Below the pieces are notes generated by a model, which did no database searches, was not told the DNA's origin, and was given only the letters and a program-made list of their open reading frames with translations. 64,000 bases of DNA, taken from assembly GCA_013286795.1 (NCBI GenBank), contig JABDFA010000001.1:38195-102194 (forward strand), in the 5' to 3' direction. The position numbers and the translations under genes were made by a program. The stretch comes from Candidatus Babelota bacterium. GTDB taxonomy: Bacteria > Babelota > Babeliae > Babelales > JABDEC01. Below, one piece after another: positions 1,168 through 48,229 of the stretch (position 1 is the stretch's first letter; each line of letters opens with the position of its first letter).

Positions 1168-1827
1168 TTACAAGATAATACATTCATGCTTTCTTATAGG
1201 ACGACTCAAAATTTTCCTGATAGTTGGATTTTCTGTAAGATCAATTGGTCTTTTACCTTTTTGGTCTTGCAAAATTGGATTCGCACCAAATCTAAGTAAT
1301 ATTTTAATTATATCAGGATGAACATTTTTTTCTGCTGCCCGATGCAACAATGTGACACCATATTCATTAGAATAATTGATATCAATACCTTTTAATAATA
1401 ACAATGATATTATTTTTTTAAAATTTTCCTTTGTTTCATCATTTATAAAATCAAATTCTTGTTCTTTATCTTCTTTTTCTTCTCTTTCTCCAAATATAGA
1501 AGGATATTTTCCTAAATTTGACATAGTATAACCTAAAGCACAATCACCAAAGCTATCAACTATACGGACATTGGCTCCATTATCAATTAATAATTTAACT
1601 ATTTTATAATTTAAATTTTTACAAGCCATCATTAAAGCTGTGTGTCTATGATTATTTTCATCTATCATAGGAAAATCAACATTGTATCCTGATTCTATTT
1701 GTTTTTTAACTTCAGAAAAATCATTATGCTCCGCCGCTTTAAATAATTCGCTTCCATATGTGCTTTGATAACAAAAAATAAATAAAAATATATAAATATA
1801 TTTTTTCTTTAAAATCTTATTAAACAT
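1168..1827 (-). CDS. Secreted ankyrin-repeat protein ending in a CaaX box (CIIL)
   Basis: The N-terminal leader is MFNKILKKKYIYIFLFIFCYQSTYG. ANK repeats include 'TALMMACKNLNYKIVKLLIDNGANV' and 'TLLHRAAEKNVHPDIIKILLRFGANP'. The C-terminus is 'RKHECIIL*'. Confidence 0.85.
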   Translation of the reverse strand: MFNKILKKKYIYIFLFIFCYQSTYGSELFKAAEHNDFSEVKKQIESGYNVDFPMIDENNHRHTALMMACKNLNYKIVKLLIDNGANVRIVDSFGDCALGYTMSNLGKYPSIFGEREEKEDKEQEFDFINDETKENFKKIISLLLLKGIDINYSNEYGVTLLHRAAEKNVHPDIIKILLRFGANPILQDQKGKRPIDLTENPTIRKILSRPIRKHECIIL

Positions 1828-4625: not shown

Positions 4626-5228
4626 ATGAAATTAAGATTATTTTTATCAGTGGCAATAGCTTTATTAATTGTTCCCACAATCAGCTTATCTATGATTAAA
4701 AAGCATAGAAGCCCACAAGAAAAATTATTTAAAGGTACAAGGTATAATGATTTAAATTTGGTACAAGAAGCTCTAGCAGAAGGAGCAGATGTTAATGCAA
4801 AAAATGACATTGGAAAAACTCCTTTAAATATCATAATCGATCATAACGGTTTTCGGAGTTCCAAAAATTCAGATATCGTATTATTAAAAATTATCGAATT
4901 ATTATTAAAGTCAGGCGCACATGTTAATGAAAAAAATAACTATGGCAACACTCCTCTTTATAGTCTGATTCGATTAAATTATGATCCTAATATTATTGAA
5001 ATGTTATTAAATGCAGGTGCTGATATTAATATTGGAAGCTCATATGAAGAAACTATTGGTGAGACTGCTTTAGATGTAGCAAAAGCAAAAAACAATGAAA
5101 AAATAATTAGGCTTCTTACAAAATGGTTAAAAGAATTAAGAAAAAAAGCTAAAGAAGAAACAGCTGCCTATTTAATACCTGATATTAGTGATATAGTTTG
5201 TGATTATGTTGTTGGCTCAAAAAAGTAA
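4626..5228 (+). CDS. Secreted ankyrin-repeat protein with the conserved C-terminal tail motif
   Basis: RBS AGGAGG lies upstream. The leader is MKLRLFLSVAIALLIVPTISLS. ANK repeats include 'TPLNIIIDHNG..', 'TPLYSLIRLNYDPNIIEMLLNAGADIN'. The tail is 'YLIPDISDIVCDYVVGSKK*'. Confidence 0.85.
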   Translation: MKLRLFLSVAIALLIVPTISLSMIKKHRSPQEKLFKGTRYNDLNLVQEALAEGADVNAKNDIGKTPLNIIIDHNGFRSSKNSDIVLLKIIELLLKSGAHVNEKNNYGNTPLYSLIRLNYDPNIIEMLLNAGADINIGSSYEETIGETALDVAKAKNNEKIIRLLTKWLKELRKKAKEETAAYLIPDISDIVCDYVVGSKK

Positions 5229-9090: not shown

Positions 9091-10191
9091 ATGAAATTTA
9101 AAAATTCAATTAGTGTGTTAATTCTATTTTCTTTATGTAACAATCAGATCCATTCAATGGATCTGATCAAAAAAAGTATTAAAAATAATAAAAGGTTTGT
9201 TATTTGCGTTGCAATTGGAGGCTTAGCTTTAGTTGCAACTAAATTTATAAATTCAAAAAACAGTACTCCCAAAAATGTTTTTGGTGAACACATAGATAAG
9301 ATTAAACAGCCATTTACTTATAATGTCGTTTTATTTTTAATTGATTCTGGCAATTTTGGTACAAAGGATTTTCAAAACACGTCAGAAGCAGAACAAATTT
9401 GTGATAATCTAAATGATGCTCTAAAATTACAATGTGTATGTAAACAATGGCGAGAAATGTTCTCTGTAGATGTTATAGGTAATCTTTTAAAAAATAAGAT
9501 AGGCACTATTAAGATCAAAGAAGAAACTGAGGGATTAGCTATAATTGATTATACAATTTTACATCATGCCTTCAGAAATGGATATACCAATGTAGCAAAA
9601 TGTCTTATAATTTCAGGTTATGATGCCAATGCTAAATGCAAAAGACTAGATTTTAAATGGTACAAAGGCGCAGGACTCTCTACACATTTTATGAAATCTT
9701 TAAAAACATTTACTGGTTCTAATCTTGAAAATTATGTTAATAGAAATATAAAAGAATTATCAGAGTTTGAAATATTGCGTATCCAATCAAGAAATCACGA
9801 ATTTTACGTGAAACCTTTATTTTATGCTGTAATTAATAACCACCCCAAAACTGTTGAAAAATTAATACATTCAACTACCAATATCAATGAACCATTAAAT
9901 TATGAATTTAGTGTTCATATATGTGCTTATTACCCCAGAGGAAAAAAACCTTTCCTTGTTAAACGCCCAAAAGCTAGAAATAGTTTCATTGATATAACTC
10001 TAAAACTTTACTTAAATCTACTTGATATTGCTAAAATTAGGCAATACAGAGAAATTGAAAATATATTAGAAATTCATGGTGGAATTCATGCTTTAAATTA
10101 TGAAATTTCGCAAGAAGATCGAGACAAGCTTAATAAGTTAAAAGAAGAATGGCGAAATGAAGAAAGAAAGTCTTCTTTAGAGTATGTTTAA
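9091..10191 (+). CDS. F-box-like plus ankyrin-repeat protein with leader and TM segment
   Basis: '..ICDNLNDALKLQCVCKQWREMF' matches the C-terminal half of the F-box consensus (L..L..VCK.W..L). ANK-like repeats follow ('ILHHAFRNGYTNVAKCLIISGYDANAK', 'PLFYAVINNHPKTVEKLIHSTTNIN'). Confidence 0.7.
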   Translation: MKFKNSISVLILFSLCNNQIHSMDLIKKSIKNNKRFVICVAIGGLALVATKFINSKNSTPKNVFGEHIDKIKQPFTYNVVLFLIDSGNFGTKDFQNTSEAEQICDNLNDALKLQCVCKQWREMFSVDVIGNLLKNKIGTIKIKEETEGLAIIDYTILHHAFRNGYTNVAKCLIISGYDANAKCKRLDFKWYKGAGLSTHFMKSLKTFTGSNLENYVNRNIKELSEFEILRIQSRNHEFYVKPLFYAVINNHPKTVEKLIHSTTNINEPLNYEFSVHICAYYPRGKKPFLVKRPKARNSFIDITLKLYLNLLDIAKIRQYREIENILEIHGGIHALNYEISQEDRDKLNKLKEEWRNEERKSSLEYV

Positions 10192-10219: not shown

Positions 10220-10792
10220 TTAATCAATTTCTATTTCAAAAGCTTTTAACAAATCCAGAACTTCAGGAACAGAGAATTTGGCTTTCTTGATTACATTAAT
10301 TGTAGGGTCAATAAAATAATTTTTTGATTTTCTAAAATCTGATTTTGATAAGTTACATCTATTAAATATTGTTCCTGTAAGATCTGTCTCAGAAAAATTA
10401 GCTTCAATTAAATCAACATTGGTAAAATTAACATCTTTTAGCTTTGACCCCACAAATGAAGTTTTATTTAAGGACAATTTTTTAAAATCACAAAATTGTA
10501 ATATTGTATTATTAAAATTAAAAGATAATAAAGGTTTTTCACATTTAAAAAAGTCTAAACCAACAAGCTTACAATCTTTGAAGGTAACATCTTGGAATTT
10601 ACAATGGTCCAGGTTGATTAAATTAATGTTGCAATTGATAAATTCACAATCGTAGAAGTTCGCATAAGACCAGTCATTTTTTACAAAATTACACCTTTCA
10701 AAAATCATATTTTTTAGTGTATAGTTTTTGAAATCTTTATTAGTGTAATCTTTAGATCTAATTGTTTGATTTTCTAAAAATAATTCGTTCAT
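10220..10792 (-). CDS. Pentapeptide-repeat protein
   Basis: Continuous A(D/N)LxX-type five-residue periodicity is visible, e.g. 'ERCNFVKNDWSYANFYDCEFINCNINLINLDHCKFQDVTFKDCKL'. Confidence 0.85.
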   Translation of the reverse strand: MNELFLENQTIRSKDYTNKDFKNYTLKNMIFERCNFVKNDWSYANFYDCEFINCNINLINLDHCKFQDVTFKDCKLVGLDFFKCEKPLLSFNFNNTILQFCDFKKLSLNKTSFVGSKLKDVNFTNVDLIEANFSETDLTGTIFNRCNLSKSDFRKSKNYFIDPTINVIKKAKFSVPEVLDLLKAFEIEID

Positions 10793-11168: not shown

Positions 11169-12401
11169 TTAATTTTTATCATATTCATCAAGAGCATCAT
11201 TTAGAATCCGATTTAATTCTGTCGATGGATTAATTTTAACGATACCTGGTTCTGTAGGTGGATTAGAATATGCTTGATTGCTCCAGATTTTTATTTTTCC
11301 ATCATATGATCCTGATGCAAACGTATTTTCTGATAATGCACACAAGCTGGTAAGACCACTTTCATGGGCCTGAAAAGTTTTTATACATTTGCCGCTTTCT
11401 GTATCCCATATTTTTATGGTTTTGTCATAATATCCAGATATAGATACAACTATCTTAGTAGATAATACACATAAATGTTTTGCATCTGTTTCTAATGTTT
11501 TTTCACATTCACCTGTTTCTAAATTCCATATTTTAATCTTGCAATCATCATATCCTGAAACAAGTTTATTTTTTGATAGTATACATAATGTATGGATAGA
11601 ACTATTGTGATCCTTAAGTGTTTTTACGCATTCATTATTATTTAAGTTCCATATTTTTATTGTTCCATCATGTGATGCTGATGCTAATGAATTTTCGGAT
11701 ATGGCACAAAAAGCTGTAATGGAAGATTCATGCTCCGATAAAGTTTGCTCACATTTACCTGTTTTTAGATTAAATATTTTAATTGAATCTTGCTTGTATA
11801 AGTAATTATAAGGCTTATTTTCATGGAAGCTAAAAACAAGTTTATCAGAATTTAATATACATAATATACATTTACCAATATCATTAAATTCAAAAGTTCT
11901 TTCATGTCTACAATATAGCCAATCCTTTTTTACTAAGTCTAAAAAATCTAAATTCCATATATTTATTGTTTTTTTATGAAATGAATGTCCTGATATTAGA
12001 ATATTTTTTGAAGGCGAACATAAGGTATCAATTCGATTTCCCAAAAATTTGGTACTTATACAATTGTAAGTTCCTAAATCCCATATTTTTATGTATCCAT
12101 TATTTGATACTGCTGCTATTTTATTATCATCTAATTTACATAAGGAATCAACGACTTCAAAGCCACCAAGTTCTCTAGCTAATAATTCTTTGCATTCCCA
12201 TTTATCTTCTATTGGATCATATTCTTGAACTAATCTAGCTAAATCATCAATTAAATGCTGGGAAAGACATTCTTGGCGATATCCGGTGATTTTTTGAACT
12301 AATGCAGAAGATAAGTCTTCTTTTTCTTTTGATTCAGACATTGAGTTTATATTAAAAGTCACTACTGAAAGTAATAAAACTATTTTTAGTATATTATTCA
12401 T
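11169..12401 (-). CDS. Secreted WD40-repeat protein with an N-terminal F-box-like motif
   Basis: About seven repeats end in 'IKIWDL/IKIWNL/INIWNL/IKIFNL/IKIWDT'. The leader is MNNILKIVLLLSVVTFNINS. 'HLIDDLARLVQEYDP' lies upstream of the propeller. Confidence 0.85.
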   Translation of the reverse strand: MNNILKIVLLLSVVTFNINSMSESKEKEDLSSALVQKITGYRQECLSQHLIDDLARLVQEYDPIEDKWECKELLARELGGFEVVDSLCKLDDNKIAAVSNNGYIKIWDLGTYNCISTKFLGNRIDTLCSPSKNILISGHSFHKKTINIWNLDFLDLVKKDWLYCRHERTFEFNDIGKCILCILNSDKLVFSFHENKPYNYLYKQDSIKIFNLKTGKCEQTLSEHESSITAFCAISENSLASASHDGTIKIWNLNNNECVKTLKDHNSSIHTLCILSKNKLVSGYDDCKIKIWNLETGECEKTLETDAKHLCVLSTKIVVSISGYYDKTIKIWDTESGKCIKTFQAHESGLTSLCALSENTFASGSYDGKIKIWSNQAYSNPPTEPGIVKINPSTELNRILNDALDEYDKN

Positions 12402-12579: not shown

Positions 12580-13347
12580 ATGAGATATTTAAAATATTTA
12601 GTTTTTTCATTTATAGTAATTTCTTTTTCACAAACTATCAAACCTTTTGGGGCTGATTTGACTGAAGAAGAACAAATTGAGCTTGCAAAGCTAATGAGCT
12701 TGGAAGCTGAAAGCAAAAGAATTCAGGAAGAATCTAACAAAACAGAAGAAGACGCAGAGCTTAAAAAAGCTATTCAAATGAGTTTGGAATCTCAAGCTAA
12801 AGACAAAAAACATCTTTCTCAAGAAGAGCAAAAAAGGGTTAATGATATGCTTTGGGATGGGGTAAAGGCGAAAAATGCTGCATTGGTTAATAAAGCTTTA
12901 ACATCTGGAGCAAATTTCAATATCCTAATTCAATCTAATATCCCAATTCACTCTAAAATAACACCTTTAATATATTCTTCGAGTGTAGGCTATGAAGATA
13001 TTATAAAAACATTATTAGATGCTGGAGCAGATCCTAATATTAGAGATGATTATGGGAGAACATCTTTAATGTATGCTTCATTGTCTGGTTATGAAAGTGC
13101 AGTAAGGATGTTATTAGAAAACGGCGCTAATCCTAATATTATTGATGATGGTGGTGAAACTGCAGCAGATAAAGCTAAGAAAAACGGCTATAAAGCAATT
13201 GAACAAATATTAAGGGAAGCCCAAAGACAAGCAGTTAAAAAAGAAATTATTAAAAATACACCTTTGATTCCAGAATTTGCTGAAATAATTTCTGAATACG
13301 CTGAATGCCTCAAGCCTGAAAACTCAAAACGTAAGGAAATAAAATGA
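12580..13347 (+). CDS. Secreted protein with tandem UIMs, ankyrin repeats and the conserved C-terminal tail
   Basis: The two UIMs are 'TEEEQIELAKLMSLEAES' and 'TEEDAELKKAIQMSLESQ' (e-e-x-x-x-A-x-x-x-S-x-x-e pattern). ANK repeats include 'TPLIYSSSVGYEDIIKTLLDAGADPN', 'TSLMYASLSGYESAVRMLLENGANPN'. The tail is 'PLIPEFAEIISEYAEC'. Confidence 0.85.
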   Translation: MRYLKYLVFSFIVISFSQTIKPFGADLTEEEQIELAKLMSLEAESKRIQEESNKTEEDAELKKAIQMSLESQAKDKKHLSQEEQKRVNDMLWDGVKAKNAALVNKALTSGANFNILIQSNIPIHSKITPLIYSSSVGYEDIIKTLLDAGADPNIRDDYGRTSLMYASLSGYESAVRMLLENGANPNIIDDGGETAADKAKKNGYKAIEQILREAQRQAVKKEIIKNTPLIPEFAEIISEYAECLKPENSKRKEIK

Positions 13348-14195
13348 AAGTTGTTAAAATATTGTATTTAGGGGTATTTTTTAGTTGCATATTATCTAAT
13401 GCTGCAGAGTTAGAAGTAAAAGAAACAAATGAGCTTGATAGGCTTGAGAATTTTGTTCTATCATTTAATAAACAATTACATATTAATAAGCAGTTATTTA
13501 ATGCTATTTCAAAAGGTTCTTTAGATGATGTTAAAAAATCTTTGGAAAATGGTGCTAGCCTAACATCAATAAATTTATTAAAAGAATACAATACTCCTCT
13601 TTTTGCTGCTATTTATGCACCTATAACTGTCAATAAAATTCTGATAATTGAATTGCTGCTGAAAAAAGGTGCAAATCCAAATGACTCAGATGTAAAAGGT
13701 AAGACACCATTAAGTGCAGCATTGACTTTAAATGAAATTGTAAGAGAAGAGAGTAATCAAATTCCAGCTATAGTAAAACTTTTATTAGATTTTGGTGCTG
13801 ATGTAAATAAACCTTCTGGTGATGGATACACCCCTATTATGGAAGCTAGAAATAGAAGTACGCCTGATTTAATCAATTTATTGATCAAAAATGGAGCTGA
13901 CGTTAATGCTTATGAGGAAGAGGATGCTTCTACTGCTTTAATTCAAGCAGCAGAAAGAGCCGATAATGTAGCAGTAAGAGCTTTGTTATCTGCAGGTGCT
14001 GATATAAATCATAGGGATAATGAAGGAGAAACTGCGTATGAAGTTGCAGATAGACTTTGCAATGCCGAAACTGCTGAAATTATAAAAAGTTGGTCAGAGT
14101 TTATGCAAAAAGGGATAGAAAAAGAACTTTTTGAAATGGGCTATTCAGTTAATGATCTAAATAAAATTATTTCAAGCTATCTGTTTAATCTTTAA
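13344..14195 (+). CDS. Secreted ankyrin-repeat protein
   Basis: The start overlaps the upstream stop (ATGA). ANK repeats include 'TPLSAALTLN..', 'TPIMEARNRSTPDLINLLIKNGADVN', 'TALIQAAERADNVAVRALLSAGADIN'. The tail is 'VNDLNKIISSYLFNL*'. Confidence 0.85.
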   Translation: MKVVKILYLGVFFSCILSNAAELEVKETNELDRLENFVLSFNKQLHINKQLFNAISKGSLDDVKKSLENGASLTSINLLKEYNTPLFAAIYAPITVNKILIIELLLKKGANPNDSDVKGKTPLSAALTLNEIVREESNQIPAIVKLLLDFGADVNKPSGDGYTPIMEARNRSTPDLINLLIKNGADVNAYEEEDASTALIQAAERADNVAVRALLSAGADINHRDNEGETAYEVADRLCNAETAEIIKSWSEFMQKGIEKELFEMGYSVNDLNKIISSYLFNL

Positions 14196-15008: not shown

Positions 15009-15956
15009 ATGGAGATCAAAATAATAAAGGTTTTTACAATCTTTCTAGTTTTAGCTTTTTTCAATAATATAAGCAGTATGGGGCCTGGTATTTCTCCTAA
15101 TCAGCTTTTGATTGATAGTGCTGCGACTGGTGATCTTGAAGGCGTTAAAAATGCTTTGGAGCAAGGTGCAGATGTATATTATCAAGGTGGCAAATATAGA
15201 GAGAGTCGTTTCGATGACTTACCGGCAATTTTTTATGCTTGTGAAAGAGGACATTTAAATATTGTTGAATTTTTGGTTAAATCAGGCTTTGATCCTAACT
15301 TTGTTGAAGCTAGAAACTATACCCTTCTGGACTTTGCAATATGGAACAAACATACTAAAATCTTTGAATATTTAATTAAGAAAAACTTAACTAATCGTAC
15401 AAGAATAGTTAGCTATTTTAGTTTTTATGGATCTTATATTCCTCAGCTTGCAGTTTGGCATGGAGTAACTCCTTCTCGTTTAAGATACGAAAAAAACATT
15501 AGAGTAGTTATTCAAGATTTTGATCTAAAATTGAAAAAATGGTTATCTGAAAGAGATAGACAAATCAAAGAACTTTCAACTGTTGGGCGTGATAGTGAAG
15601 AAGGGTTACGCATAATAGAATCTTTGGAAAGTATCAAAAGTACTATATTAAGTATTTTAGATACCCAAGCTATTTTAAAAAAATTTGCATTAAGGCTTGC
15701 AAATCTTGAAAATAAAAGCTTTAAGGACATTGTTAAAAAAGCTAATCAGGTTAAAAAGAATAAGCTTAAAAACAAAATTAATGGATTAGGTATTTTACCT
15801 CATGTTATTGAAGATATGGTTGTTCAATATTCTTTATATCCAGAAAATTTTGAAGATTTCTTTAAGTTGTCAGATTATGAGCTTGATGATCTAGTCAAAA
15901 CCTACTCAGAGGAATTTGAAAAAAAAGAACGTGCTGAATCTTGTTTAATTATGTAA
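15009..15956 (+). CDS. Secreted ankyrin-repeat protein ending in a CaaX box (CLIM)
   Basis: ANK repeats include 'LLIDSAATGDLEGVKNALEQGADV' and 'PAIFYACERGHLNIVEFLVKSGFDPN'. An internal tail-like motif 'ILPHVIEDMVVQYS' is present. The C-terminus is 'RAESCLIM*'. Confidence 0.8.
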   Translation: MEIKIIKVFTIFLVLAFFNNISSMGPGISPNQLLIDSAATGDLEGVKNALEQGADVYYQGGKYRESRFDDLPAIFYACERGHLNIVEFLVKSGFDPNFVEARNYTLLDFAIWNKHTKIFEYLIKKNLTNRTRIVSYFSFYGSYIPQLAVWHGVTPSRLRYEKNIRVVIQDFDLKLKKWLSERDRQIKELSTVGRDSEEGLRIIESLESIKSTILSILDTQAILKKFALRLANLENKSFKDIVKKANQVKKNKLKNKINGLGILPHVIEDMVVQYSLYPENFEDFFKLSDYELDDLVKTYSEEFEKKERAESCLIM

Positions 15957-39721: not shown

Positions 39722-41209
39722 ATGAATAGAATTTTTAGTTCTCTTTTATTTATTAGTATTTTGGCGTCTAATTCAAGTTTAATTTATTCTTCACAGCAAG
39801 ACGTTGATTATCTTAAAGGTCTTGTGAAATATCAGGGTGATTTTCCAGGATTATCTAAATTAACCTTAAATAATGCTAAGGAGCAACTGAAGGATATTGG
39901 AGTTATAAAAAATCAATCTTTGCGTAACGGAGAAAATATCTTAGAAAACGTTGTAGGTTTAAAAGATTATCAATCAGCAACTCCAGTAGGAAATTTAAAA
40001 CAAATACAAGGAGACTTAAGAGCTGTGAAGGCATTAATTAATCTTGGTGTTGATATTAACATTAGGGATCAAAACTTGACTACTCCATTGATGATGGCTG
40101 CTTTTACTGGTCAAGATGGTATAGTTGAATATTTATTATCCAAAGGCGCTGATAAGAGTTTGCAAAATAGTGGAGATCATGATTATAAAACAGCTTTAGA
40201 TTACGCTATGGAATCTCAAGAAAAATACAAAGATGATCCAGTAATTTCAGCAAAATTACAAAAAATAGTTCGAATGTTATTATCTGACTCTAAACCAGAT
40301 ATGAGTGAGACAAAAAGAGGGGCTGAGTTTGTTTCAACACCTACTGAATCTGAAAATCAATTACAAGCTATTCAGCAAAATTTAAAGAAATTAAACGCTG
40401 ACGCTAAAATATTATTAGAAAAACCAAAAGGTCCTTTTAACAAGGCAACTATAAATAATTTATTAAGTAATATAAATAACTTAGATCTTAGAATAAGATC
40501 AGGAAAAACTGACACCACATCTGTAAAGAATTATACAGATGAGCTCAATAGATTAATCGATAGTTATAACAGTCTAAATCTATCCATTAATGGTCCAAGT
40601 ACACCTTCTTCAACTGTAGCTACAAATCAAAATGATATCAAAAGAGGAGTTGAATTTGTCTCAACGCCTACACCATCTTCAGAAACCCAAGGTAATCTAA
40701 GAGATCAATTACGTGATTTAAGAGACAATGATTTATTAACATATTTACAACCAAAAGTATTAGGTTTAAAAGAAAAACTAAGGGGAGAGAAAAAAGGTTT
40801 TGATGCCGTCATCGATCTATTATCTAAAATAGACAGATTAGAAACTTTTATAACTTATAGATTAACCTCAAGAATTCCTTTGATCAGTATAGATACTCAA
40901 AAATTAGCAATTTCAGAATTAAATGCGGATTATAATGATTTATTGTTTACATATACTGGAGAAGGTAATGATCCAATCTTGAATAAATTGAATCTTTTGA
41001 AATCTATAGCAGATAATTTGAAAAGTAGACCAAAATATACAGAATTCAAAACACAAGTTGATCAATTCAGTGATGCGGTAGATAAACTATTAAGTAATGC
41101 TAAGAACATGAAAAGAAATGAATTAGAAGGTAAGATAGGTAGTTTAGAAGTGGCACAATGGCATCTATATGAGCTTTTTGGCAAGGAATTTGAAACTGCT
41201 TCTAAATAA
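39722..41209 (+). CDS. Secreted ankyrin protein with two ~110-aa repeats carrying S/T/P-rich patches
   Basis: GGAG lies 6 nt before ATG 39722. ANK repeats include 'TPLMMAAFTGQDGIVEYLLSKGADK'. The duplicated segments start 'KRGAEFVSTPTESEN' and 'KRGVEFVSTPTPSSET', and 'GPSTPSSTVATNQ' is also present. Confidence 0.75.
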   Translation: MNRIFSSLLFISILASNSSLIYSSQQDVDYLKGLVKYQGDFPGLSKLTLNNAKEQLKDIGVIKNQSLRNGENILENVVGLKDYQSATPVGNLKQIQGDLRAVKALINLGVDINIRDQNLTTPLMMAAFTGQDGIVEYLLSKGADKSLQNSGDHDYKTALDYAMESQEKYKDDPVISAKLQKIVRMLLSDSKPDMSETKRGAEFVSTPTESENQLQAIQQNLKKLNADAKILLEKPKGPFNKATINNLLSNINNLDLRIRSGKTDTTSVKNYTDELNRLIDSYNSLNLSINGPSTPSSTVATNQNDIKRGVEFVSTPTPSSETQGNLRDQLRDLRDNDLLTYLQPKVLGLKEKLRGEKKGFDAVIDLLSKIDRLETFITYRLTSRIPLISIDTQKLAISELNADYNDLLFTYTGEGNDPILNKLNLLKSIADNLKSRPKYTEFKTQVDQFSDAVDKLLSNAKNMKRNELEGKIGSLEVAQWHLYELFGKEFETASK

Positions 41210-41223
41210 CTTTTTGGTAACTA

Positions 41224-42189
41224 CTATCTTTCTATAAATTGTGGAACATATTCCATATGGGGAGAGTTGTTGTTGATCTTATAAAATTGGCTAATGTCAA
41301 TTTTTAAACCAGATTTAAACTTTGTTAAAAGTTCTTGGTTAGAATATAATCCCATATTGCGGTTAGTAGATTGAGAATAACATAGGTTAAGTGGAATATT
41401 TAAAATCTTAGATTCTGCAAAAAATAAACCCTTTTTATTGTAATCAGATAAGTGATGCCAATAATATTCAAAAGTAGTTGGATTAACCATATTTATTGTT
41501 AATAAATCATTTTTAATATCTTCTTTTTTGTATATTGTCATATCGACAGTATTGGGGTATCTCCAATCTCCACAACTATTATTAAAAGTATACATGCAAA
41601 TATTATTATCAACCAAATTATATTCTGGAAGAGGAGTTGGGTTAATAAACATCATGTATGATTCTTTAATATTAAGTCCAAGTCGCAAATAAAATCCATA
41701 AGCATTAGTTAGTTTTAAAGCTTGCGTGCACTGTAAAATATCTATTTCATCTTTTACTATAATATCATCAACAGCATAGATTATATATTCTTCAGGTGAA
41801 TTAAAAGTGTATTCAAGAGTTAATATTTTAAAATCTGAATAAGGATCATTCCCCTGTTGATGAAATTTATAATGATTAAATCTTTTTTCGACTTCTTTAT
41901 ACGCATCCAAATAATCATGATCTGCTCTAAAAATTATGTGTGTTTCACCTAAATTTTTTACATACTTTTCTATAGATTCAAGAAGCGCATATAATTGTAA
42001 AGGTCTATTGTATGAAAATATAACTAGATCTGCTTTGTTTCCTGCAAATAAGTTTATAAAAATAGTTGAGAATAATGCTACTAAACATAATAATTTTTTT
42101 TTGGATTCGTATATAAGTCCGTTCGCCCTGAGCGATGTCTGAGCGACGAAGGAGTCGAAGACAGAGTCGAATGGGTTAACTATATTCAT
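41224..42189 (-). CDS. GT-A-like glycosyltransferase (paralog of 23595-24458) whose 5' end and start codon lie inside a GC-rich repeat
   Basis: 'ADLVIFSYNRPLQLYALLESI' and 'IYAVDDIIV' are present. The homology-supported body starts at '..KKKLLCLVALFSTIFINLFA', which has no canonical start of its own. In-frame ATGs occur only in or beyond the repeat (42189, 42375, 42384), so the end coordinate is uncertain. Confidence 0.6.
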   Translation of the reverse strand: MNIVNPFDSVFDSFVAQTSLRANGLIYESKKKLLCLVALFSTIFINLFAGNKADLVIFSYNRPLQLYALLESIEKYVKNLGETHIIFRADHDYLDAYKEVEKRFNHYKFHQQGNDPYSDFKILTLEYTFNSPEEYIIYAVDDIIVKDEIDILQCTQALKLTNAYGFYLRLGLNIKESYMMFINPTPLPEYNLVDNNICMYTFNNSCGDWRYPNTVDMTIYKKEDIKNDLLTINMVNPTTFEYYWHHLSDYNKKGLFFAESKILNIPLNLCYSQSTNRNMGLYSNQELLTKFKSGLKIDISQFYKINNNSPHMEYVPQFIER

Positions 42190-42323
42190 AAATATATTTA
42201 TGAATTCCCAGATATTATTTTTAATGAAACATTTAAAGCATAAATTACTTAAATTTTTTACCCATTCGACTCCCTCATTCGACTCGCGTAAACGCTCGCT
42301 CAGAGATCGCTCAGGGCGAACGG
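42119..42323. repeat. MITE-like GC-rich palindromic element (205 bp)
   Basis: The terminal inverted repeats are CCGTTCGCCCTGAGCGAT (42119-42136) and ATCGCTCAGGGCGAACGG (42306-42323). Imperfectly complementary GC-rich arms of about 60 nt flank an AT-rich centre. It is collinear with the 51149-51311 copy. Confidence 0.8.
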
Positions 42324-42433
42324 GATAAAGACAAGTTAATTTAATTTTTATATTAAAAATATGAGTATAATGCATAGTTATCACGAACGGATTTTAAATT
42401 TATCTTCCAACCAAATTAATTCCCTAACAGCTT

Positions 42434-43708
42434 TTAGGATTTTGCAGGTATTTCTTCACCATTATTTAACTTATTTTTTAGAGCAAGTTCATTTTGTTGT
42501 AATTTTTCCAAATAACACATTAAATTATGATACAAATGTGGAACCGCTGCTTTGATAGCATTCATAGTTGCATCTTTGCCAATGCTATATTCACCAGCAT
42601 GCCAAGCAGATTTGCTTAAAATTTCATGTCTAGTGTAATCATAAATTTGTTTATCAACAAAAAGTACCTCATTTTGAGGGTAAGGCAAATCTTTGGTCAT
42701 CTTTGCAAATAAAAAACAGGTTGGAATATTTTCTGGCCAATAATGTTCAGCAATTCTAATTAGTGGTTCTGCGCGATGTGATCTTAGTTGATAAGCTTTG
42801 AGATAATAATCCATAGCCATTTGCCAAGTAAATTTTTCATCTATTTTGGAAAGCGAATCAGATACTCTTGCAAGTCGATAAAATGTTTCATAATTTTCTT
42901 CATCCCAGCCAGGTTGATGAGAACGAAGTTCATAATATTTATAAGCATTATGCAAATCATTAAGACCTTCAAATGTTTGGGCTAAGTAAAATGTGGTGCG
43001 TGAATTTTCTGGATTTTTATTGTGATCTTTCAATAGTAGTTCTCTATCTCTAACCCAACGTTTTTGTGTAGCTTCTATTCCTCTGCTGGTAGGTTTATAT
43101 TCTAAGTATATATCTTTTGGAAGTCTATCATTACTAGAAATTGGTATTACTTCGTGGACAACTCCCATAAATCTACTATTTGAACCTTTTCTTATAAGTC
43201 TACAGTGGTAAAAATCTGTAGGATAACTGATTACGCGTATTAAATAGGCTTTACGAGTTAAATTATTTGCTTCCTTTTTACAAAAATCTAATAATCCTTC
43301 AACATTATGTGCATACCATTCCGCATCGATCATTAAAATAAATGCTGCATTTGGAAATTTCTCTTCAGCTAAATCAAGAGCTCTATTACGAGATGTTGAA
43401 AAATCAATAAAGGGTTCTTGAGCGATGTGCCCATTCTTTACATTATTTTGGTTAAAATAATCTTTTACTACATTAATTGTGTTATCGGTGGAACCGGTAT
43501 CAAAAATAAAGTAATCTTTTATTCCAGCTTTTATAAATGGTTCTAACGTTGCATTAATAACCTTTTCTTCATTTTTTACCATTAAAGTTACCACTAAAAG
43601 TGGATTGTAAATAACATCATCTAAATTAGGAGGGTATATTGAAAATGCATGAATAAATATTAGATTAGTGATAATAGTGAGTTGTAATAGATTTTTTTTG
43701 GATATCAT
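42434..43708 (-). CDS. GT2 glycosyltransferase with a C-terminal helical-repeat (TPR-like) region and a leader
   Basis: 'LVVTLMVKNEEKVINATLEPFIKAGIKDYFIFDTGSTDNT' and 'MIDAEW' are present. The C-terminal half has the helical repeats 'FYLAQTFEGLNDLHNAYKYYELR' and 'AMDYYLKAYQL'. Confidence 0.7.
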   Translation of the reverse strand: MISKKNLLQLTIITNLIFIHAFSIYPPNLDDVIYNPLLVVTLMVKNEEKVINATLEPFIKAGIKDYFIFDTGSTDNTINVVKDYFNQNNVKNGHIAQEPFIDFSTSRNRALDLAEEKFPNAAFILMIDAEWYAHNVEGLLDFCKKEANNLTRKAYLIRVISYPTDFYHCRLIRKGSNSRFMGVVHEVIPISSNDRLPKDIYLEYKPTSRGIEATQKRWVRDRELLLKDHNKNPENSRTTFYLAQTFEGLNDLHNAYKYYELRSHQPGWDEENYETFYRLARVSDSLSKIDEKFTWQMAMDYYLKAYQLRSHRAEPLIRIAEHYWPENIPTCFLFAKMTKDLPYPQNEVLFVDKQIYDYTRHEILSKSAWHAGEYSIGKDATMNAIKAAVPHLYHNLMCYLEKLQQNELALKNKLNNGEEIPAKS

Positions 43709-43802: not shown

Positions 43803-45056
43803 TTAAATTAAATATTGGGCAACTATATTTGATAGATCTTTTAAAAGGGAAGTTGAATCAGTAATTTTATCTGTAAATTTTTCTCTTGAAATTTTCTTCA
43901 TTGTCTCTGCATTTTCTAGCAACTTGATCATCTTCTCAAACTCTTTTCCGTTATATTTTCTACTACGGGGGTTGATGGCAAATAATGCAGTTTTATATTT
44001 GTCATCAACTATTTTTTTCTCGCTTATAAATCCATTAGATATATATTGAATTATTTCTAAGACAGTATGTCCATCCACATCCTTAAAACCCAAATCTGCT
44101 CCGTGCCATATTAATAATGAAACTATGTCAATTCTATTATGTAAAGCAGCAAGCATTAAAGGGCTTATTTTAGTAGAGTAATCTGTTCTTTGACAAACAC
44201 CTGGATAATTTATATCAGTACCTTTATCTATTAAGAAATCTAATAATTCGCACGTTTCATCTTTATAATTTGAATCATAAAAATCGATTCTGTGTTGATC
44301 AAATAAAATAGCATTAAAAAAAATAGACCTTTCATCGATTATATCATGTATTATTGACTGATCATGATCTATTATGAGTTTTATAATCTTTGGATCCGTT
44401 TCCCGGTCCAATCCTAGAGTTAGAGAATTATCAAATTGATCGATATATTTTGTGTTGGCTCCTTTTTTTAAAGCAATTTCTACGAGTTCCAAATCATTAT
44501 CTTTAATAGTTTCTAGCAAATAATTATTTAAATTTAACTGATTATGTAAAATAGGTAGAATTTTTTCACGATTATATTTTTTGGCAAATTCTATAGCATC
44601 CATAATTTCTTTTTTATGTTTGCATTTTTTTACAAGTAATTGAGCTAATTTTAGATAATTATTTTGTATAGCAATCATTAGGGGAGTTAGATTCTCTTCT
44701 TGAAAAGTTACATCAGAATCTTTTTTAGAGAAACAAAAAGCTAATTGGGATTTGGTGATTTCTGTATTTGCCCCATTTTCTAGTAAGAATTTGCTCATTT
44801 TTATGTCATTGATTGTAGTAGCCCAAGTTAGACAAGTATGCTCATCTTCATCTTTAGAATTGATGTCAGCTCCATTTATTAGTGCTTCCTGCATAGTTTT
44901 TATATCCCCTTCTTTTGCAGCTAAATGTAATTTTTGATTAGGGCATAACACTACTTTATATGCAGTATTAAGCTTTTGTTTTTTTGCTGGACCTTGTTCC
45001 ATCGAATTAACTTGCACAGAAGATACTGAAATAAAAATTAATAATACTTTTTTCAT
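43803..45056 (-). CDS. Secreted ankyrin-repeat protein with the conserved tail
   Basis: There are multiple ANK repeats ('LHLAAKEGDIKTMQEALINGADIN', 'TCLTWATTINDIKMSKFLLENGAN', 'SPLMLAALHNRIDIVSLLIWHGADL'). The tail is 'LLKDLSNIVAQYLI*'. Confidence 0.85.
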   Translation of the reverse strand: MKKVLLIFISVSSVQVNSMEQGPAKKQKLNTAYKVVLCPNQKLHLAAKEGDIKTMQEALINGADINSKDEDEHTCLTWATTINDIKMSKFLLENGANTEITKSQLAFCFSKKDSDVTFQEENLTPLMIAIQNNYLKLAQLLVKKCKHKKEIMDAIEFAKKYNREKILPILHNQLNLNNYLLETIKDNDLELVEIALKKGANTKYIDQFDNSLTLGLDRETDPKIIKLIIDHDQSIIHDIIDERSIFFNAILFDQHRIDFYDSNYKDETCELLDFLIDKGTDINYPGVCQRTDYSTKISPLMLAALHNRIDIVSLLIWHGADLGFKDVDGHTVLEIIQYISNGFISEKKIVDDKYKTALFAINPRSRKYNGKEFEKMIKLLENAETMKKISREKFTDKITDSTSLLKDLSNIVAQYLI

Positions 45057-47467: not shown

Positions 47468-47551
47468 TTTTACCTCTAAAAACTTTTTTATATTTATTTG
47501 ATATAATAGTATATGTGGCTATAATTTCCAGGTTTAAAGTTGGGGTTTTTT

Positions 47552-48229
47552 ATGAGAATTAAATTATTTTTATTAATCTATCTAGGATCTATAGGCTCAA
47601 TCTATGGTATGAGCAAAATTGCTAATGAAATGCTTTTGGAGGGGATTGTTATGGGGAATATAGAACTTGTAAAAGAGGCTATAGAAAATGGAGCAGATGT
47701 AAATACCAAAAAAGGCCAAGATACGGCTTTAATGATGGCTGCTCGTAATGATAATGAAGACGTAGCAAGGTTATTATTAGATGCTAAAGCTGACTGTAAT
47801 ATGACCGATGATTACAGTTCAACTCCCTTAATGATTGCAGTGCGTCGTGGCAAAGAAAATTTAGTGAAGCTATTTTTACGTTATGGTGCTGATCCTGATA
47901 TTAAAAGCAGGTATGGCGATGTGGCTTTGTTATTAGCTGCATATGGCTATGGAATTATCGTGAAAATGGAGGATATACTAAAATTATTATTAGATGCAGG
48001 TGCTTCTCTGGATATAATGGACAAGCAAGGTCTAAATGTTTTAGATACAGCAAATAAAAAAAAAGACAAATCTCTTATAGAATTATTAGAAGCTGAATAC
48101 AAAAAAAGAGAAGAAAAAAGACAACAGGTGAATAAAGAGATTGTTGAATCAGGTTATCTATTGCCGGATTTAGCAAGCATAGTTTCAGAATATGCTGTTT
48201 GCGCAAAACAAAAGGGAGGAGGCAAATAA
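47552..48229 (+). CDS. Secreted ankyrin-repeat protein with the conserved tail
   Basis: ATG 47552 gives the leader MRIKLFLLIYLGSIGSIYG. There are 4-5 ANK repeats. The tail is 'YLLPDLASIVSEYAVCAKQKGGGK*'. It is a close paralog of 63278-63919 and of the N-terminus of 54909-56264. Confidence 0.85.
   Translation: MRIKLFLLIYLGSIGSIYGMSKIANEMLLEGIVMGNIELVKEAIENGADVNTKKGQDTALMMAARNDNEDVARLLLDAKADCNMTDDYSSTPLMIAVRRGKENLVKLFLRYGADPDIKSRYGDVALLLAAYGYGIIVKMEDILKLLLDAGASLDIMDKQGLNVLDTANKKKDKSLIELLEAEYKKREEKRQQVNKEIVESGYLLPDLASIVSEYAVCAKQKGGGK

What the first reader, a model, noticed from the sequence alone, without database searches (positions are those of the whole stretch)
12177..12314. The same motif precedes a WD40 propeller, giving an FBXW-like architecture
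SEEN: in the secreted WD40 protein (11169-12401) the segment 'CLSQHLIDDLARLVQEYDPIEDKWECKELL' lies between the leader and the first WD40 blade. 'LIDDLARLVQEY' follows the same pattern as the ANK tails. KNOWLEDGE: eukaryotic FBXW proteins (beta-TrCP, Fbw7) place the F-box directly N-terminal of a WD40 substrate-binding propeller. INFERENCE: occurrence in the F-box position of a second repeat class favours the Skp1-adaptor interpretation over a purely C-terminal secretion signal.
Basis: partly seen in the sequence, partly recalled or inferred. Interest (0 to 1): 0.6.

Follow-up and report, generated by a model that had tools for sequence, protein, structure and literature searches.

The report
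Portable effector helix, not an F-box
The stretch in front of this bacterial WD40 propeller is a weak copy of a short helical tag that also ends the neighbouring ankyrin proteins and recurs in chlamydiae and giant viruses. It is too short and wrongly spaced to be an F-box, and what it binds is unknown.

Summary
Its core, HLIDDLARLVQEY, resembles the ANK tails (consensus L-[LI]-P-[DE]-L-[AS]-x-I-[VI]-x-[DE]-Y), but the Pro is replaced by Asp.

Using the window alone, the match is not significant. It becomes significant against profiles built from the wider family (E=9e-4 and 0.021; at most 1 of 100 shuffled proteomes). A paralogue, P0003, keeps the Pro.

The motif is portable. It sits N-terminal, C-terminal or internal in ANK, LRR, helicase and small proteins from Chlamydiae MAGs, another uncultured bacterium and giant-virus (NCLDV) contigs. 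No Pfam, NCBIfam or PDB entry covers it.

It fails the F-box membership tests:
- no HMM hit, although a positive control was detected;
- hydrophobic spacing one residue off the F-box consensus;
- one 10-residue helix, only 7 residues before the first strand;
- profile-profile probability 0.2%.

The best reading is an unannotated docking helix that ties different binding domains to one conserved host factor. Skp1 is one candidate among several. The FBXW reading does not.

The parts
11169..12401 (-). Gene for the 410-aa exported WD40 protein (P0001)
   Evidence: ORF list. Pfam WD40 E=1.9e-31. Exact match to P0001 on a 177,881-bp contig.
12333..12401 (-). Residues 1-23: signal-peptide-like leader (MNNILKIVLLLSVVTFNINSMSE)
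   Evidence: Read from the sequence; AF2 helix 2-23 with low pLDDT. No signal-peptide predictor was available. 52% identical in paralogue P0003.
12255..12329 (-). Residues 25-49: long helix upstream of the motif (EKEDLSSALVQKITGYRQECLSQHL)
   Evidence: AF2 H25-49, pLDDT about 62-67. Conserved in P0003. It parallels the helix that precedes the motif in the ANK tails (H172-189).
12219..12254 (-). Residues 50-61: motif core LIDDLARLVQEY (kink at I51-D52, then helix 52-61)
   Evidence: Regex hit. AF2 H52-61. Profile hits at residues 47-65 or 49-65 with E=9e-4 and 0.021.
12198..12218 (-). Residues 62-68: DPIEDKW linker, 7 residues between the motif helix and the first beta strand
   Evidence: AF2 shows no secondary structure at 62-68 and a strand at 69-74. 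Nearly identical in P0003, DPIQDKW.
11277..12197 (-). Residues 69-375: seven-bladed WD40 propeller
   Evidence: 28 predicted strands, pLDDT mostly above 90. Foldseek top hits are mostly G-beta subunits, E about 1e-22.
11175..11228 (-). Residues 392-409: C-terminal helix ELNRILNDALDEYDKN (role unknown; it also ends in EYD)
   Evidence: AF2 H392-409. Not hit by the motif profiles. Only 10% identity to P0003 in this region.
48158..48193 (+). ANK tail motif LLPDLASIVSEY (ORF 47540-48229)
   Evidence: External-only profile E=2.1e-8.
63311..63346 (-). ANK tail motif LLPELADIVSDY (ORF 63278-63919)
   Evidence: AF2 H194-207 follows a loop at 190-193. External profile E=2.2e-6.
13264..13299 (+). ANK tail motif LIPEFAEIISEY (ORF 12580-13347, which also has UIM-like helices)
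   Evidence: External profile E=4.4e-5.
5172..5207 (+). ANK tail motif LIPDISDIVCDY (ORF 4626-5228)
   Evidence: External profile E=1.2e-8.
14145..14180 (+). Degenerate ANK tail motif SVNDLNKIISSY (ORF 13344-14195)
   Evidence: It was used as training data and was not recovered by the external-only profile.
43812..43847 (-). ANK tail motif LLKDLSNIVAQY (ORF 43803-45056)
   Evidence: External profile E=0.013.
15795..15830 (+). Variant tail LPHVIEDMVVQY in ANK ORF 15009-15956, with spacing one residue longer, 41 more residues and a CLIM end
   Evidence: It is the only copy that fits phi-P-X2-phi-X3-phi. No Pfam hit.

Best explanation
Residues 25-68 form a conserved N-terminal module of a Sec-exported, seven-bladed WD40 protein. 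The module is a long helix, a kink at L50-I51-D52, then a 10-residue acidic amphipathic helix (D52-Y61) placed 7 residues before the propeller.

Its core is a divergent copy (Pro to Asp) of a portable 12-25-residue motif with consensus [K/E]-E-I-x-E-S-x-x-L-[LI]-P-[DE]-L-[AS]-x-I-[VI]-x-[DE]-Y. The same motif ends the ANK proteins of this genome. It also sits at either terminus of unrelated proteins in other intracellular bacteria and in giant viruses.

It is not an F-box, a BC/SOCS box or a sorting signal. Most likely it is a docking helix that tethers interchangeable binding domains (ANK, WD40, LRR and others) to one conserved eukaryotic host factor. On that reading the propeller is one more cargo or target binder plugged into the same hub as the ANK effectors.

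Shown: the motif, its portability, its predicted helix-kink-helix shape, and its failure of the F-box tests. Inferred: export, delivery into a host, docking to a host protein, and the identity of that protein (a cullin-ligase adaptor such as Skp1 is one candidate).
For: Selection on the module:
- The N-module is 64% identical between paralogues P0001 and P0003, against 32% for the propeller.
- ANK tails are 63% identical where the whole proteins are 38% identical.

Membership of the WD40 copy in the motif family:
- Profiles trained without any WD40 sequence give E=9e-4 and 0.021; at most 1 of 100 shuffles reaches those scores.
- P0003 keeps L-I-P.
- The best outside match is a giant-virus tail, 10 of 18 identical.

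Portability:
- C-terminal on ANK proteins of a Chlamydiales MAG (L033), and near-C-terminal (36-143 residues from the end) on ANK-containing proteins of MFD10064.bin.1.39 (L010, L021, L040).
- N-terminal in a Chlamydiae protein family (L041/L114/L130) and tandem in P0137.
- C-terminal in a three-copy small-protein family on contigs from one metagenome, one of which (L051) carries a VLTF3 gene and is therefore NCLDV (PF04947, E=5e-19), and N-terminal in another viral family.
- N-terminal to an SF1 helicase, internal before LRRs, and C-terminal after ANK or Cys-rich domains in metagenome contigs of GC 0.22-0.59.

Shape: in both AF2 models the motif is a short helix after a longer helix and a 2-4-residue break, with pLDDT only 57-74. 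That fits a segment that needs a partner.

Not annotated: no Pfam, NCBIfam or PDB-sequence match covers it.

Context: the window also encodes RING+LRR, UIM-like and CaaX-ended ANK proteins. Signal-peptide ANK expansions aimed at the host are documented for Dependentiae (PMC4378268, PMC6561590).
Against: - The WD40 copy is weak. It lacks the Pro, and the window-only tests are not significant.
- No binding partner is known and no interaction was tested.
- The N-terminal helix could instead be a lineage-specific structural extension of the propeller. G-beta, the closest fold, also has an N-terminal helix.
- Motif instances outside the window were found with a DNA pattern that fixes 9 of the 12 positions. 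The sample is therefore biased towards the consensus, and about 30-50 of the raw hits per scan are chance.
- One partner, an SF1 helicase, is not an obvious adaptor cargo.
- The organism was not identified. Export and delivery into a host cell are inferred from the leader sequence and from the literature.
- Two protein-database searches with the short module found almost nothing, so the family's true size is unknown.
Confidence: 0.5

Rival explanations
1. One reading: the motif is a minimal or degenerate F-box (helix H1 only) that binds host Skp1. The WD40 protein would then be an FBXW-like SCF substrate receptor and the ANK proteins would be PRANC-like.
For: - L-P followed by an amphipathic helix ending in an aromatic residue, often with a Pro 2-4 residues later, recalls LPxEIxxxIxxYLxP (sequences).
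- Its positions (N-terminal of WD40, C-terminal of ANK) and its partner domains match F-box usage. Viral F-boxes and BC boxes are known to be truncated (PMC6232478).
- Amoeba-associated bacteria and giant viruses are rich in F-box proteins (PMC4209131).
- The 15009 tail, and a relative's signal-peptide WD40 protein (L112, KLPKVLELEIFSY), fit phi-P-X2-phi-X3-phi.
Against: - No F-box, F-box-like or PRANC HMM hit at E<=10, while a control F-box is detected.
- Hydrophobic register is P+2, +5, +6, +9 rather than P+3, +7, +8, +11. This WD40 copy has no Pro at all.
- Only one helix and 7 residues precede the propeller. ANK tails end 2-17 residues after the Tyr.
- hhalign probability is 0.2%, and the alignment falls on H3, not H1.
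- No F-box/WD40 protein appears among the top 50 Foldseek PDB matches.
Confidence: 0.13
2. Chance resemblance: the WD40 N-module is a lineage-specific helical extension of the propeller, for example a G-beta-like partner helix or a cap, and is unrelated to the ANK tails.
For: Window-only statistics are not significant. Pro and Ile of the consensus are replaced. The top structural neighbours, G-beta subunits, have an N-terminal helix with a different role. No outside homologues of the whole N-module were found.
Against: - Profiles built without WD40 sequences rank the two WD40 paralogues immediately after the ANK tails and above all other ORFs. At most 1 of 100 shuffles reaches their scores.
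- P0003 has L-I-P.
- Positions the DNA pattern did not select also agree: His before the first Leu, and the C-x-S-x-H stretch shared with giant-virus tails.
Confidence: 0.17
3. The motif is a bacterial secretion or sorting signal for a step after Sec export.
For: Most copies in this genome are at the extreme C-terminus of signal-peptide proteins. Dependentiae have a type II secretion system (PMC4776705).
Against: It is N-terminal in the WD40 paralogues and in chlamydial and viral proteins, internal or tandem elsewhere, and present in NCLDV proteins. There is no NCBIfam sorting-signal model. The helix is acidic and is not a transmembrane-plus-basic tail.
Confidence: 0.05
4. The motif is a different known class of host-directed helical signal. 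One option is an all-helical nuclear export signal (Phi-xx-Phi-xxx-Phi-xx-Phi). Another is a DCAF-type H-box that docks the propeller on DDB1.
For: Spacing I/L(1)-L(4)-V(8)-Y(11) fits a class-3 NES pattern (own knowledge of the consensus). A helix directly N-terminal of a WD40 propeller is the DCAF arrangement (PMC3928422; AF2). Position independence suits a short linear signal.
Against: Conservation of P, D/E, A/S and Y is far tighter than an NES needs. H-boxes are basic with a conserved Leu/Arg pair, and DCAF propellers carry WDxR. Here the helix is acidic and no WD is followed by x-R (IWDLG, IWDTE; sequence). Nothing was tested directly.
Confidence: 0.08

Closest known systems
F-box domain of FBXW proteins (beta-TrCP, Fbw7, Cdc4) and the truncated C-terminal F-box (PRANC) of poxvirus, Orientia and Wolbachia ANK proteins
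   Same: An adaptor-type element N-terminal of WD40 and C-terminal of ANK repeats. L-P before an amphipathic helix. Found in host-associated bacteria and large DNA viruses.
   Different: One helix of about 10 residues instead of three helices over 40-50 residues. Hydrophobic register shifted by one residue. No H2/H3 or Trp. No helical linker to the propeller. No HMM or profile similarity.
Poxvirus ANK/BC proteins (ECTV 010, CPXV 019): ANK repeats plus a short, truncated C-terminal Elongin-BC box that recruits Cullin-2 (PMC6232478)
   Same: The closest functional analogy. A roughly 10-residue helical box at the tail of ANK proteins, missed by domain databases, sufficient to dock a repeat protein on a host ligase.
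   Different: The BC consensus [TSP]-L-X3-[CSA]-X3-phi is not met; position 6 is Leu or Phe (against the sequences). hhalign against SOCS boxes gives 0.5%. The partner of the present motif is unknown.
H-box of DCAF WD40 receptors and its viral mimics (HBx, SV5-V), which dock on DDB1
   Same: A short helix directly N-terminal of a seven-bladed WD40 propeller. The helix is portable and is copied by viruses.
   Different: H-boxes are basic with a conserved Leu/Arg pair, and DCAFs have WDxR motifs. This helix is acidic and the propeller has no WDxR.
G-protein beta subunit
   Same: Best structural match of the whole model: an N-terminal helix followed by seven WD40 blades.
   Different: 17-19% identity and high rmsd over the helix. 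No G-gamma partner is known here. The helix here carries the ANK-tail motif.

Membership tests
F-box (Pfam PF00646/PF12937; PRANC PF09372) | Sequence matches the family HMMs | tested here: not met
   No hit at E<=10 on residues 1-101 of P0001 or P0003, or on eight tails and N-term segments. Positive control: L130:853-2595 F-box, E=1.4e-5, 25.2 bits against a 20.5-bit cutoff.
F-box (Pfam PF00646/PF12937; PRANC PF09372) | 40-50-residue domain of three helices after the L-P | tested here: not met
   AF2: after L50-I51-D52 there is one helix (52-61), 7 loop residues, then strand 69-74. pLDDT is 62-74, so confidence is moderate. ANK tails stop 2-17 residues after the Tyr.
F-box (Pfam PF00646/PF12937; PRANC PF09372) | Core pattern phi-P-X2-phi-X3-phi (as given in PMC6232478) | tested here: not met
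   The WD40 copy has Asp in place of Pro. The family has hydrophobics at P+2, +5, +6, +9. Only the 15009-15956 tail (LPHVIEDMV) fits.
F-box (Pfam PF00646/PF12937; PRANC PF09372) | Profile-profile similarity to F-box alignments | tested here: not met
   hhalign probability 0.2% over 6 columns, aligned to H3.
F-box (Pfam PF00646/PF12937; PRANC PF09372) | Binds Skp1 | not testable with these tools
FBXW architecture | F-box, then a helical linker of tens of residues, then the WD40 propeller | tested here: not met
   7 residues lie between the motif helix and the first strand. In the control L130 the F-box is at 32-66 and the blades start after about residue 120-165. The top 50 Foldseek PDB hits include no F-box/WD40 protein.
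BC box / SOCS box | [TSP]-L-X3-[CSA]-X3-phi, with a Cul box downstream | tested here: not met
   No register puts a small residue at position 6 (sequences; consensus). hhalign against SOCS boxes gives 0.5%. Elongin C binding was not testable.
DCAF (DDB1-CUL4 receptors) | Helix directly N-terminal of the propeller | tested here: met
   AF2 H25-49 and H52-61 immediately precede the blades.
DCAF (DDB1-CUL4 receptors) | Basic H-box with conserved Leu/Arg, and WDxR motifs in the propeller | tested here: not met
   The helix is acidic (DDLARLVQEYD). The W-D/N dipeptides are followed by LG, LD, LN, LE and TE, never x-R. Definition taken from PMC3928422.
C-terminal protein-sorting signals (NCBIfam CTERM-type models) | Fixed C-terminal position and a curated model | tested here: not met
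   N-terminal, internal and tandem copies exist. There is no NCBIfam hit on the tails.
WD40 beta-propeller | WD40 repeats forming a closed propeller | tested here: met
   PF00400 E=1.9e-31. 28 strands in 7 blades, pLDDT above 90. Foldseek E about 1e-22 to G-beta.
Unannotated L-[LI]-P-[DE]-L-[AS]-x-I-[VI]-x-[DE]-Y motif family (defined here) | Matches a profile built from members outside this protein family | tested here: met
   WD40 E=9e-4 (21-sequence profile) and 0.021 (external-only profile). P0003 gives E=0.044 and 0.0024. 0-1 of 100 shuffled proteomes reach those scores. The match is weaker than for the four strongest ANK tails (E 1e-8 to 4e-5; the 43803-45056 tail scores E=0.013).

The most novel reading that the evidence does not exclude
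The motif is a previously unrecognised adaptor 'box'. It would be a roughly 25-residue helix-turn-helix module exchanged among Dependentiae-like bacteria, Chlamydiae and giant viruses. Like the F-box, BTB or BC box, it would plug ANK, WD40 and LRR target-binding domains into one conserved host hub, such as a cullin-ligase adaptor or another essential protist protein. This WD40 protein would be its first propeller-type receptor.
Probability: 0.3. Interest if true: 0.75.

Novelty: new variant of a known kind. Interest (0 to 1): 0.5.

Why it matters
Intracellular bacteria and giant viruses of protists carry hundreds of ANK, LRR and WD40 proteins whose mode of action is unknown. Only those with a recognisable F-box, BTB or RING domain can be tied to a host pathway.

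A short, conserved tag that is independent of position and shared across phyla and with viruses would give a handle on many of these orphan effectors. One binding partner could explain a whole class. The motif is easy to test by peptide pull-down or point mutation.

For this particular finding the practical result is negative. The protein should not be annotated as F-box/WD40.

Tried and rejected
- The look-up of encoding contigs for P0001 and P0003 returned no record, so the genome context beyond the window and the organism name could not be obtained. 'Dependentiae-like' is an inference from GC content, signal-peptide ANK expansion and the literature.
- A homologue search with the two-sequence N-module alignment found no candidates.
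- A homologue search with a 23-sequence motif alignment returned only P0132, after two failed attempts on parameter limits.
- The representative-library search with 7 tails returned 17 hits. Nearly all were close ANK relatives and none was a WD40 protein.
- The window-only HMM and PSSM tests were too weak or overfitted to judge the WD40 copy.
- hhalign against F-box and SOCS-box alignments gave no similarity.
- The PDB sequence search gave only chance hits in enzymes.
- NCBIfam holds no tail model.
- A literal search of papers for motif strings gave irrelevant hits. Keyword searches for a described ANK tail motif found none.
- Foldseek of the ANK model against viral structures returned generic ANK proteins and said nothing about the tail. 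afdb50 was unavailable.
- By reading the sequences I considered and dropped: BC box, Cul5 box, clathrin box, LIR, SIM, UIM/MIU, B56 LxxIxE, SxIP, AKAP helix, acidic dileucine. Each fails on spacing or on a required residue in most copies.
Full report
**What is at the coordinates.** ORF 11169-12401 on the minus strand encodes a 410-aa protein. It is identical to database protein P0001, which sits on a 177,881-bp contig. Residues 1-23 look like a Sec signal peptide; this was read by eye and no predictor was run. Pfam finds WD40 repeats (PF00400, E=1.9e-31).

An AlphaFold2 model (mean pLDDT 81.7) gives the following layout:
- helix 2-23, the leader;
- helix 25-49;
- a two-residue break;
- helix 52-61;
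- a 7-residue loop;
- 28 strands forming 7 blades (residues 69-374);
- a C-terminal helix at 392-409.

The quoted peptide is residues 45-74, window 12180-12269. The descriptive part of the finding is therefore correct. The window has about 28% GC and carries many ANK proteins with signal-peptide-like N-termini. That is what is reported for Dependentiae such as Babela and Chromulinavorax. The organism itself could not be identified.

**Is it the same motif as the ANK tails?** Six ANK proteins in the window carry L-[LI]-[P/K/N]-[DE]-h-[AS/N]-x-I-[VI]-x-x-Y close to their C-termini; in a seventh, 15009-15956, 41 more residues follow. The motif follows a conserved K-E-I-V-E-S stretch. A degenerate DNA pattern for the motif matches the window three times against 0.00 expected.

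The WD40 copy, HLIDDLARLVQEY, has Asp for Pro and Leu for Ile. Judged from the window alone it is not significant:
- an HMM of the seven tails gives E=9;
- with a simple PSSM, 64% of shuffled proteomes reach its score.

I then collected members from elsewhere (described below) and built two profiles containing no WD40 sequence.
- With 21 members, the WD40 ORF is the best non-training hit in the window: E=9e-4, 10.2 bits, and no shuffled proteome out of 100 reaches it.
- With 25 members taken only from other genomes, metagenomes and viruses, four ANK tails score E=1e-8 to 4e-5. P0003 scores 0.0024, a fifth tail 0.013 and the WD40 ORF 0.021. Noise starts at 0.63. One shuffle in 100 reaches those scores.

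Three further observations support the link. The N-module is 64% identical between the paralogues against 32% for the propeller. The best tblastn match of the module among all fetched loci is a giant-virus tail, KCASPHLIPDLAKIVHDY, 10 of 18 identical. I conclude that the motif is shared, at modest significance.

**Where else the motif occurs.** I scanned public collections with the DNA pattern. It fixes 9 of the 12 positions, and about 30-50 chance hits are expected per large scan. Genuine copies stood out as long ORFs with matching flanks. They were found in these settings:
- the C-terminus of an ANK protein in a Chlamydiales MAG, L033;
- the N-terminus of a Chlamydiae protein family, L041/L114/L130;
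- four ANK-containing proteins of the uncultured bacterium MFD10064.bin.1.39;
- a family of about 130-aa proteins ending in ...SPHLIPDLAKIVHDYI, in three copies on two viral contigs from one metagenome; one of them, L051, also carries a VLTF3 gene and is therefore NCLDV (PF04947, E=5e-19);
- a second viral family with the motif at residue 12;
- metagenome contigs of GC 0.22-0.59, where it is N-terminal to an SF1 helicase and to a repeat protein, internal before LRRs, and C-terminal after ANK or Cys-rich domains;
- many low-GC ANK relatives of the window's own proteins.

P0137 has two tandem copies and P0136 has a duplicated helix. No Pfam family covers the motif in any of these proteins. NCBIfam has no model for it. 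A profile search of all PDB sequences finds only chance matches. I found no description of it in the searchable literature.

**Is it an F-box?** The defining features fail.
1. [quoted passage not shown] The same scan detects a genuine F-box (PF00646, E=1.4e-5, above the curated cutoff) at residues 32-66 of a symbiont WD40 protein, L130:853-2595. That gene lies next to a motif-bearing gene. Two homologues in the first search, P0013 and P0120, also carry Pfam F-boxes.
2. The F-box core is phi-P-X2-phi-X3-phi (PMC6232478). The motif has hydrophobic residues at P+2, +5, +6 and +9, an offset of one residue inside the helix. This copy has no Pro.
3. After the L-I-D there is one 10-residue helix and 7 residues before the first strand. 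ANK tails end 2-17 residues after the Tyr. That leaves no room for H2, H3 or the helical linker of FBXW proteins.
4. hhalign of the motif alignment against an F-box alignment gives probability 0.2%, and against SOCS boxes 0.5%.
5. The top 50 Foldseek PDB matches of the model are mostly G-beta subunits, which have an N-terminal helix plus seven blades, along with designed propellers and LIS1. None is an F-box/WD40 protein.

The structural one is met. The shuffle one is met only for window-only tests.

The BC-box consensus [TSP]-L-X3-[CSA]-X3-phi is not met either. A DCAF-type reading fits the helix-before-propeller layout. It fails on the basic H-box residues and on WDxR motifs.

**What it most likely is.** Both AF2 models show the same unit: a longer helix, a 2-4-residue break containing L-[LI]-[P/D], then a 10-14-residue acidic amphipathic helix. 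Confidence is only 57-74 pLDDT next to very confident repeat domains. This is typical of a segment that becomes ordered on a partner.

The motif has four relevant properties:
- it is more conserved than the domains it is attached to;
- it is indifferent to N- or C-terminal placement;
- it is attached mostly to protein-binding repeats (ANK, WD40, LRR);
- it was found mainly in host-associated bacteria and giant viruses, although the survey was biased by the DNA pattern.

The simplest mechanism is a portable docking helix for one conserved eukaryotic protein. It would be analogous in logic to the truncated F-box of ANK/PRANC proteins and, more closely in size, to the truncated BC box of poxvirus ANK/BC proteins.

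The identity of the partner is not shown. Skp1 remains possible, at about 0.13. So do an export receptor or another hub. The viral, internal and tandem copies strengthen it.

**Limits.**
- The WD40 copy is the weakest member of the family.
- The outside sample is biased by the DNA pattern.
- The protein-level searches with this short module were almost empty, so the family's size and any eukaryotic members are unknown.
- No interaction was tested.
- The organism, protein export and delivery into a host are inferred.

Noticed in passing
window 15009-15956 (+) and 1168-1827 (-): Two signal-peptide ANK proteins end in CaaX-type boxes: ...AESCLIM* and ...KHECIIL*. These may be host prenylation motifs, like that of Legionella AnkB. 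The first also carries the variant tail motif 41 residues upstream.
   Followed up: no
window 12580-13347 (+): This ANK protein has two UIM-like helices near its N-terminus (EEEQIELAKLMSLEAE, EDAELKKAIQMSLESQ; Pfam UIM E=0.006, below cutoff) as well as the C-terminal motif.
   Followed up: partly
window 54165-54902 (+) and 54909-56264 (-): An LRR + RING-finger protein (PF13639, E=3.8e-7) lies next to a protein with two ANK blocks separated by a CxxC...CxxC stretch. These are further ubiquitin-system-like effectors.
   Followed up: partly
window 9091-10191 (+): A membrane or signal-anchored ANK protein gives a weak F-box-like hit (PF12937, E=0.093, residues 108-125, LKLQCVCKQWREMF). This may be the only canonical-type F-box remnant in the window.
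   Followed up: no
L112:1074-2225 (-), contig Ga0207097_1028 (low-GC relative): A signal-peptide WD40 protein whose N-terminus, KLPKVLELEIFSYISDEL, fits phi-P-X2-phi-X3-phi and lies about 55-80 residues before the blades. It is a better FBXW-like candidate than the protein under study, but Pfam is negative at E<=10.
   Followed up: partly
L130:853-2595 (-) and L130:2795-3700 (+): A genuine Pfam F-box + WD40 protein in a symbiont-type contig sits directly beside a gene with the motif at its N-terminus. The second gene belongs to a family shared with Chlamydiae MAG loci L041/L114 and has no Pfam domain.
   Followed up: partly
L050 and L051 (IMG/VR contigs from one metagenome, GC about 0.55): A giant-virus (NCLDV) gene family of about 130-aa proteins, at least three copies, ends in ...EEFLKC(A/S)SPHLIPDLAKIVHDYI*. 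L051 also carries a VLTF3 gene.
   Followed up: partly
window 11175-11228 (-), residues 392-409 of the WD40 protein: The C-terminal predicted helix ELNRILNDALDEYDKN also ends in EYD with a similar heptad pattern. The motif profiles do not detect it, and it is not conserved in P0003.
   Followed up: no
window about 19000-39600 and 41200-43700: A large cluster of paralogous glycosyltransferase- or methyltransferase-like genes with signal-anchor N-termini. Several gene pairs are clearly duplicated, for example 19060/20021/37938, 20958/24462 and 23595/41224.
   Followed up: no
window 10220-10792 (-): A pentapeptide-repeat protein (PF13599, E=2.1e-23) lies immediately downstream of the WD40 gene, inside the ANK/WD40 effector cluster at 9-16 kb.
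   Followed up: no
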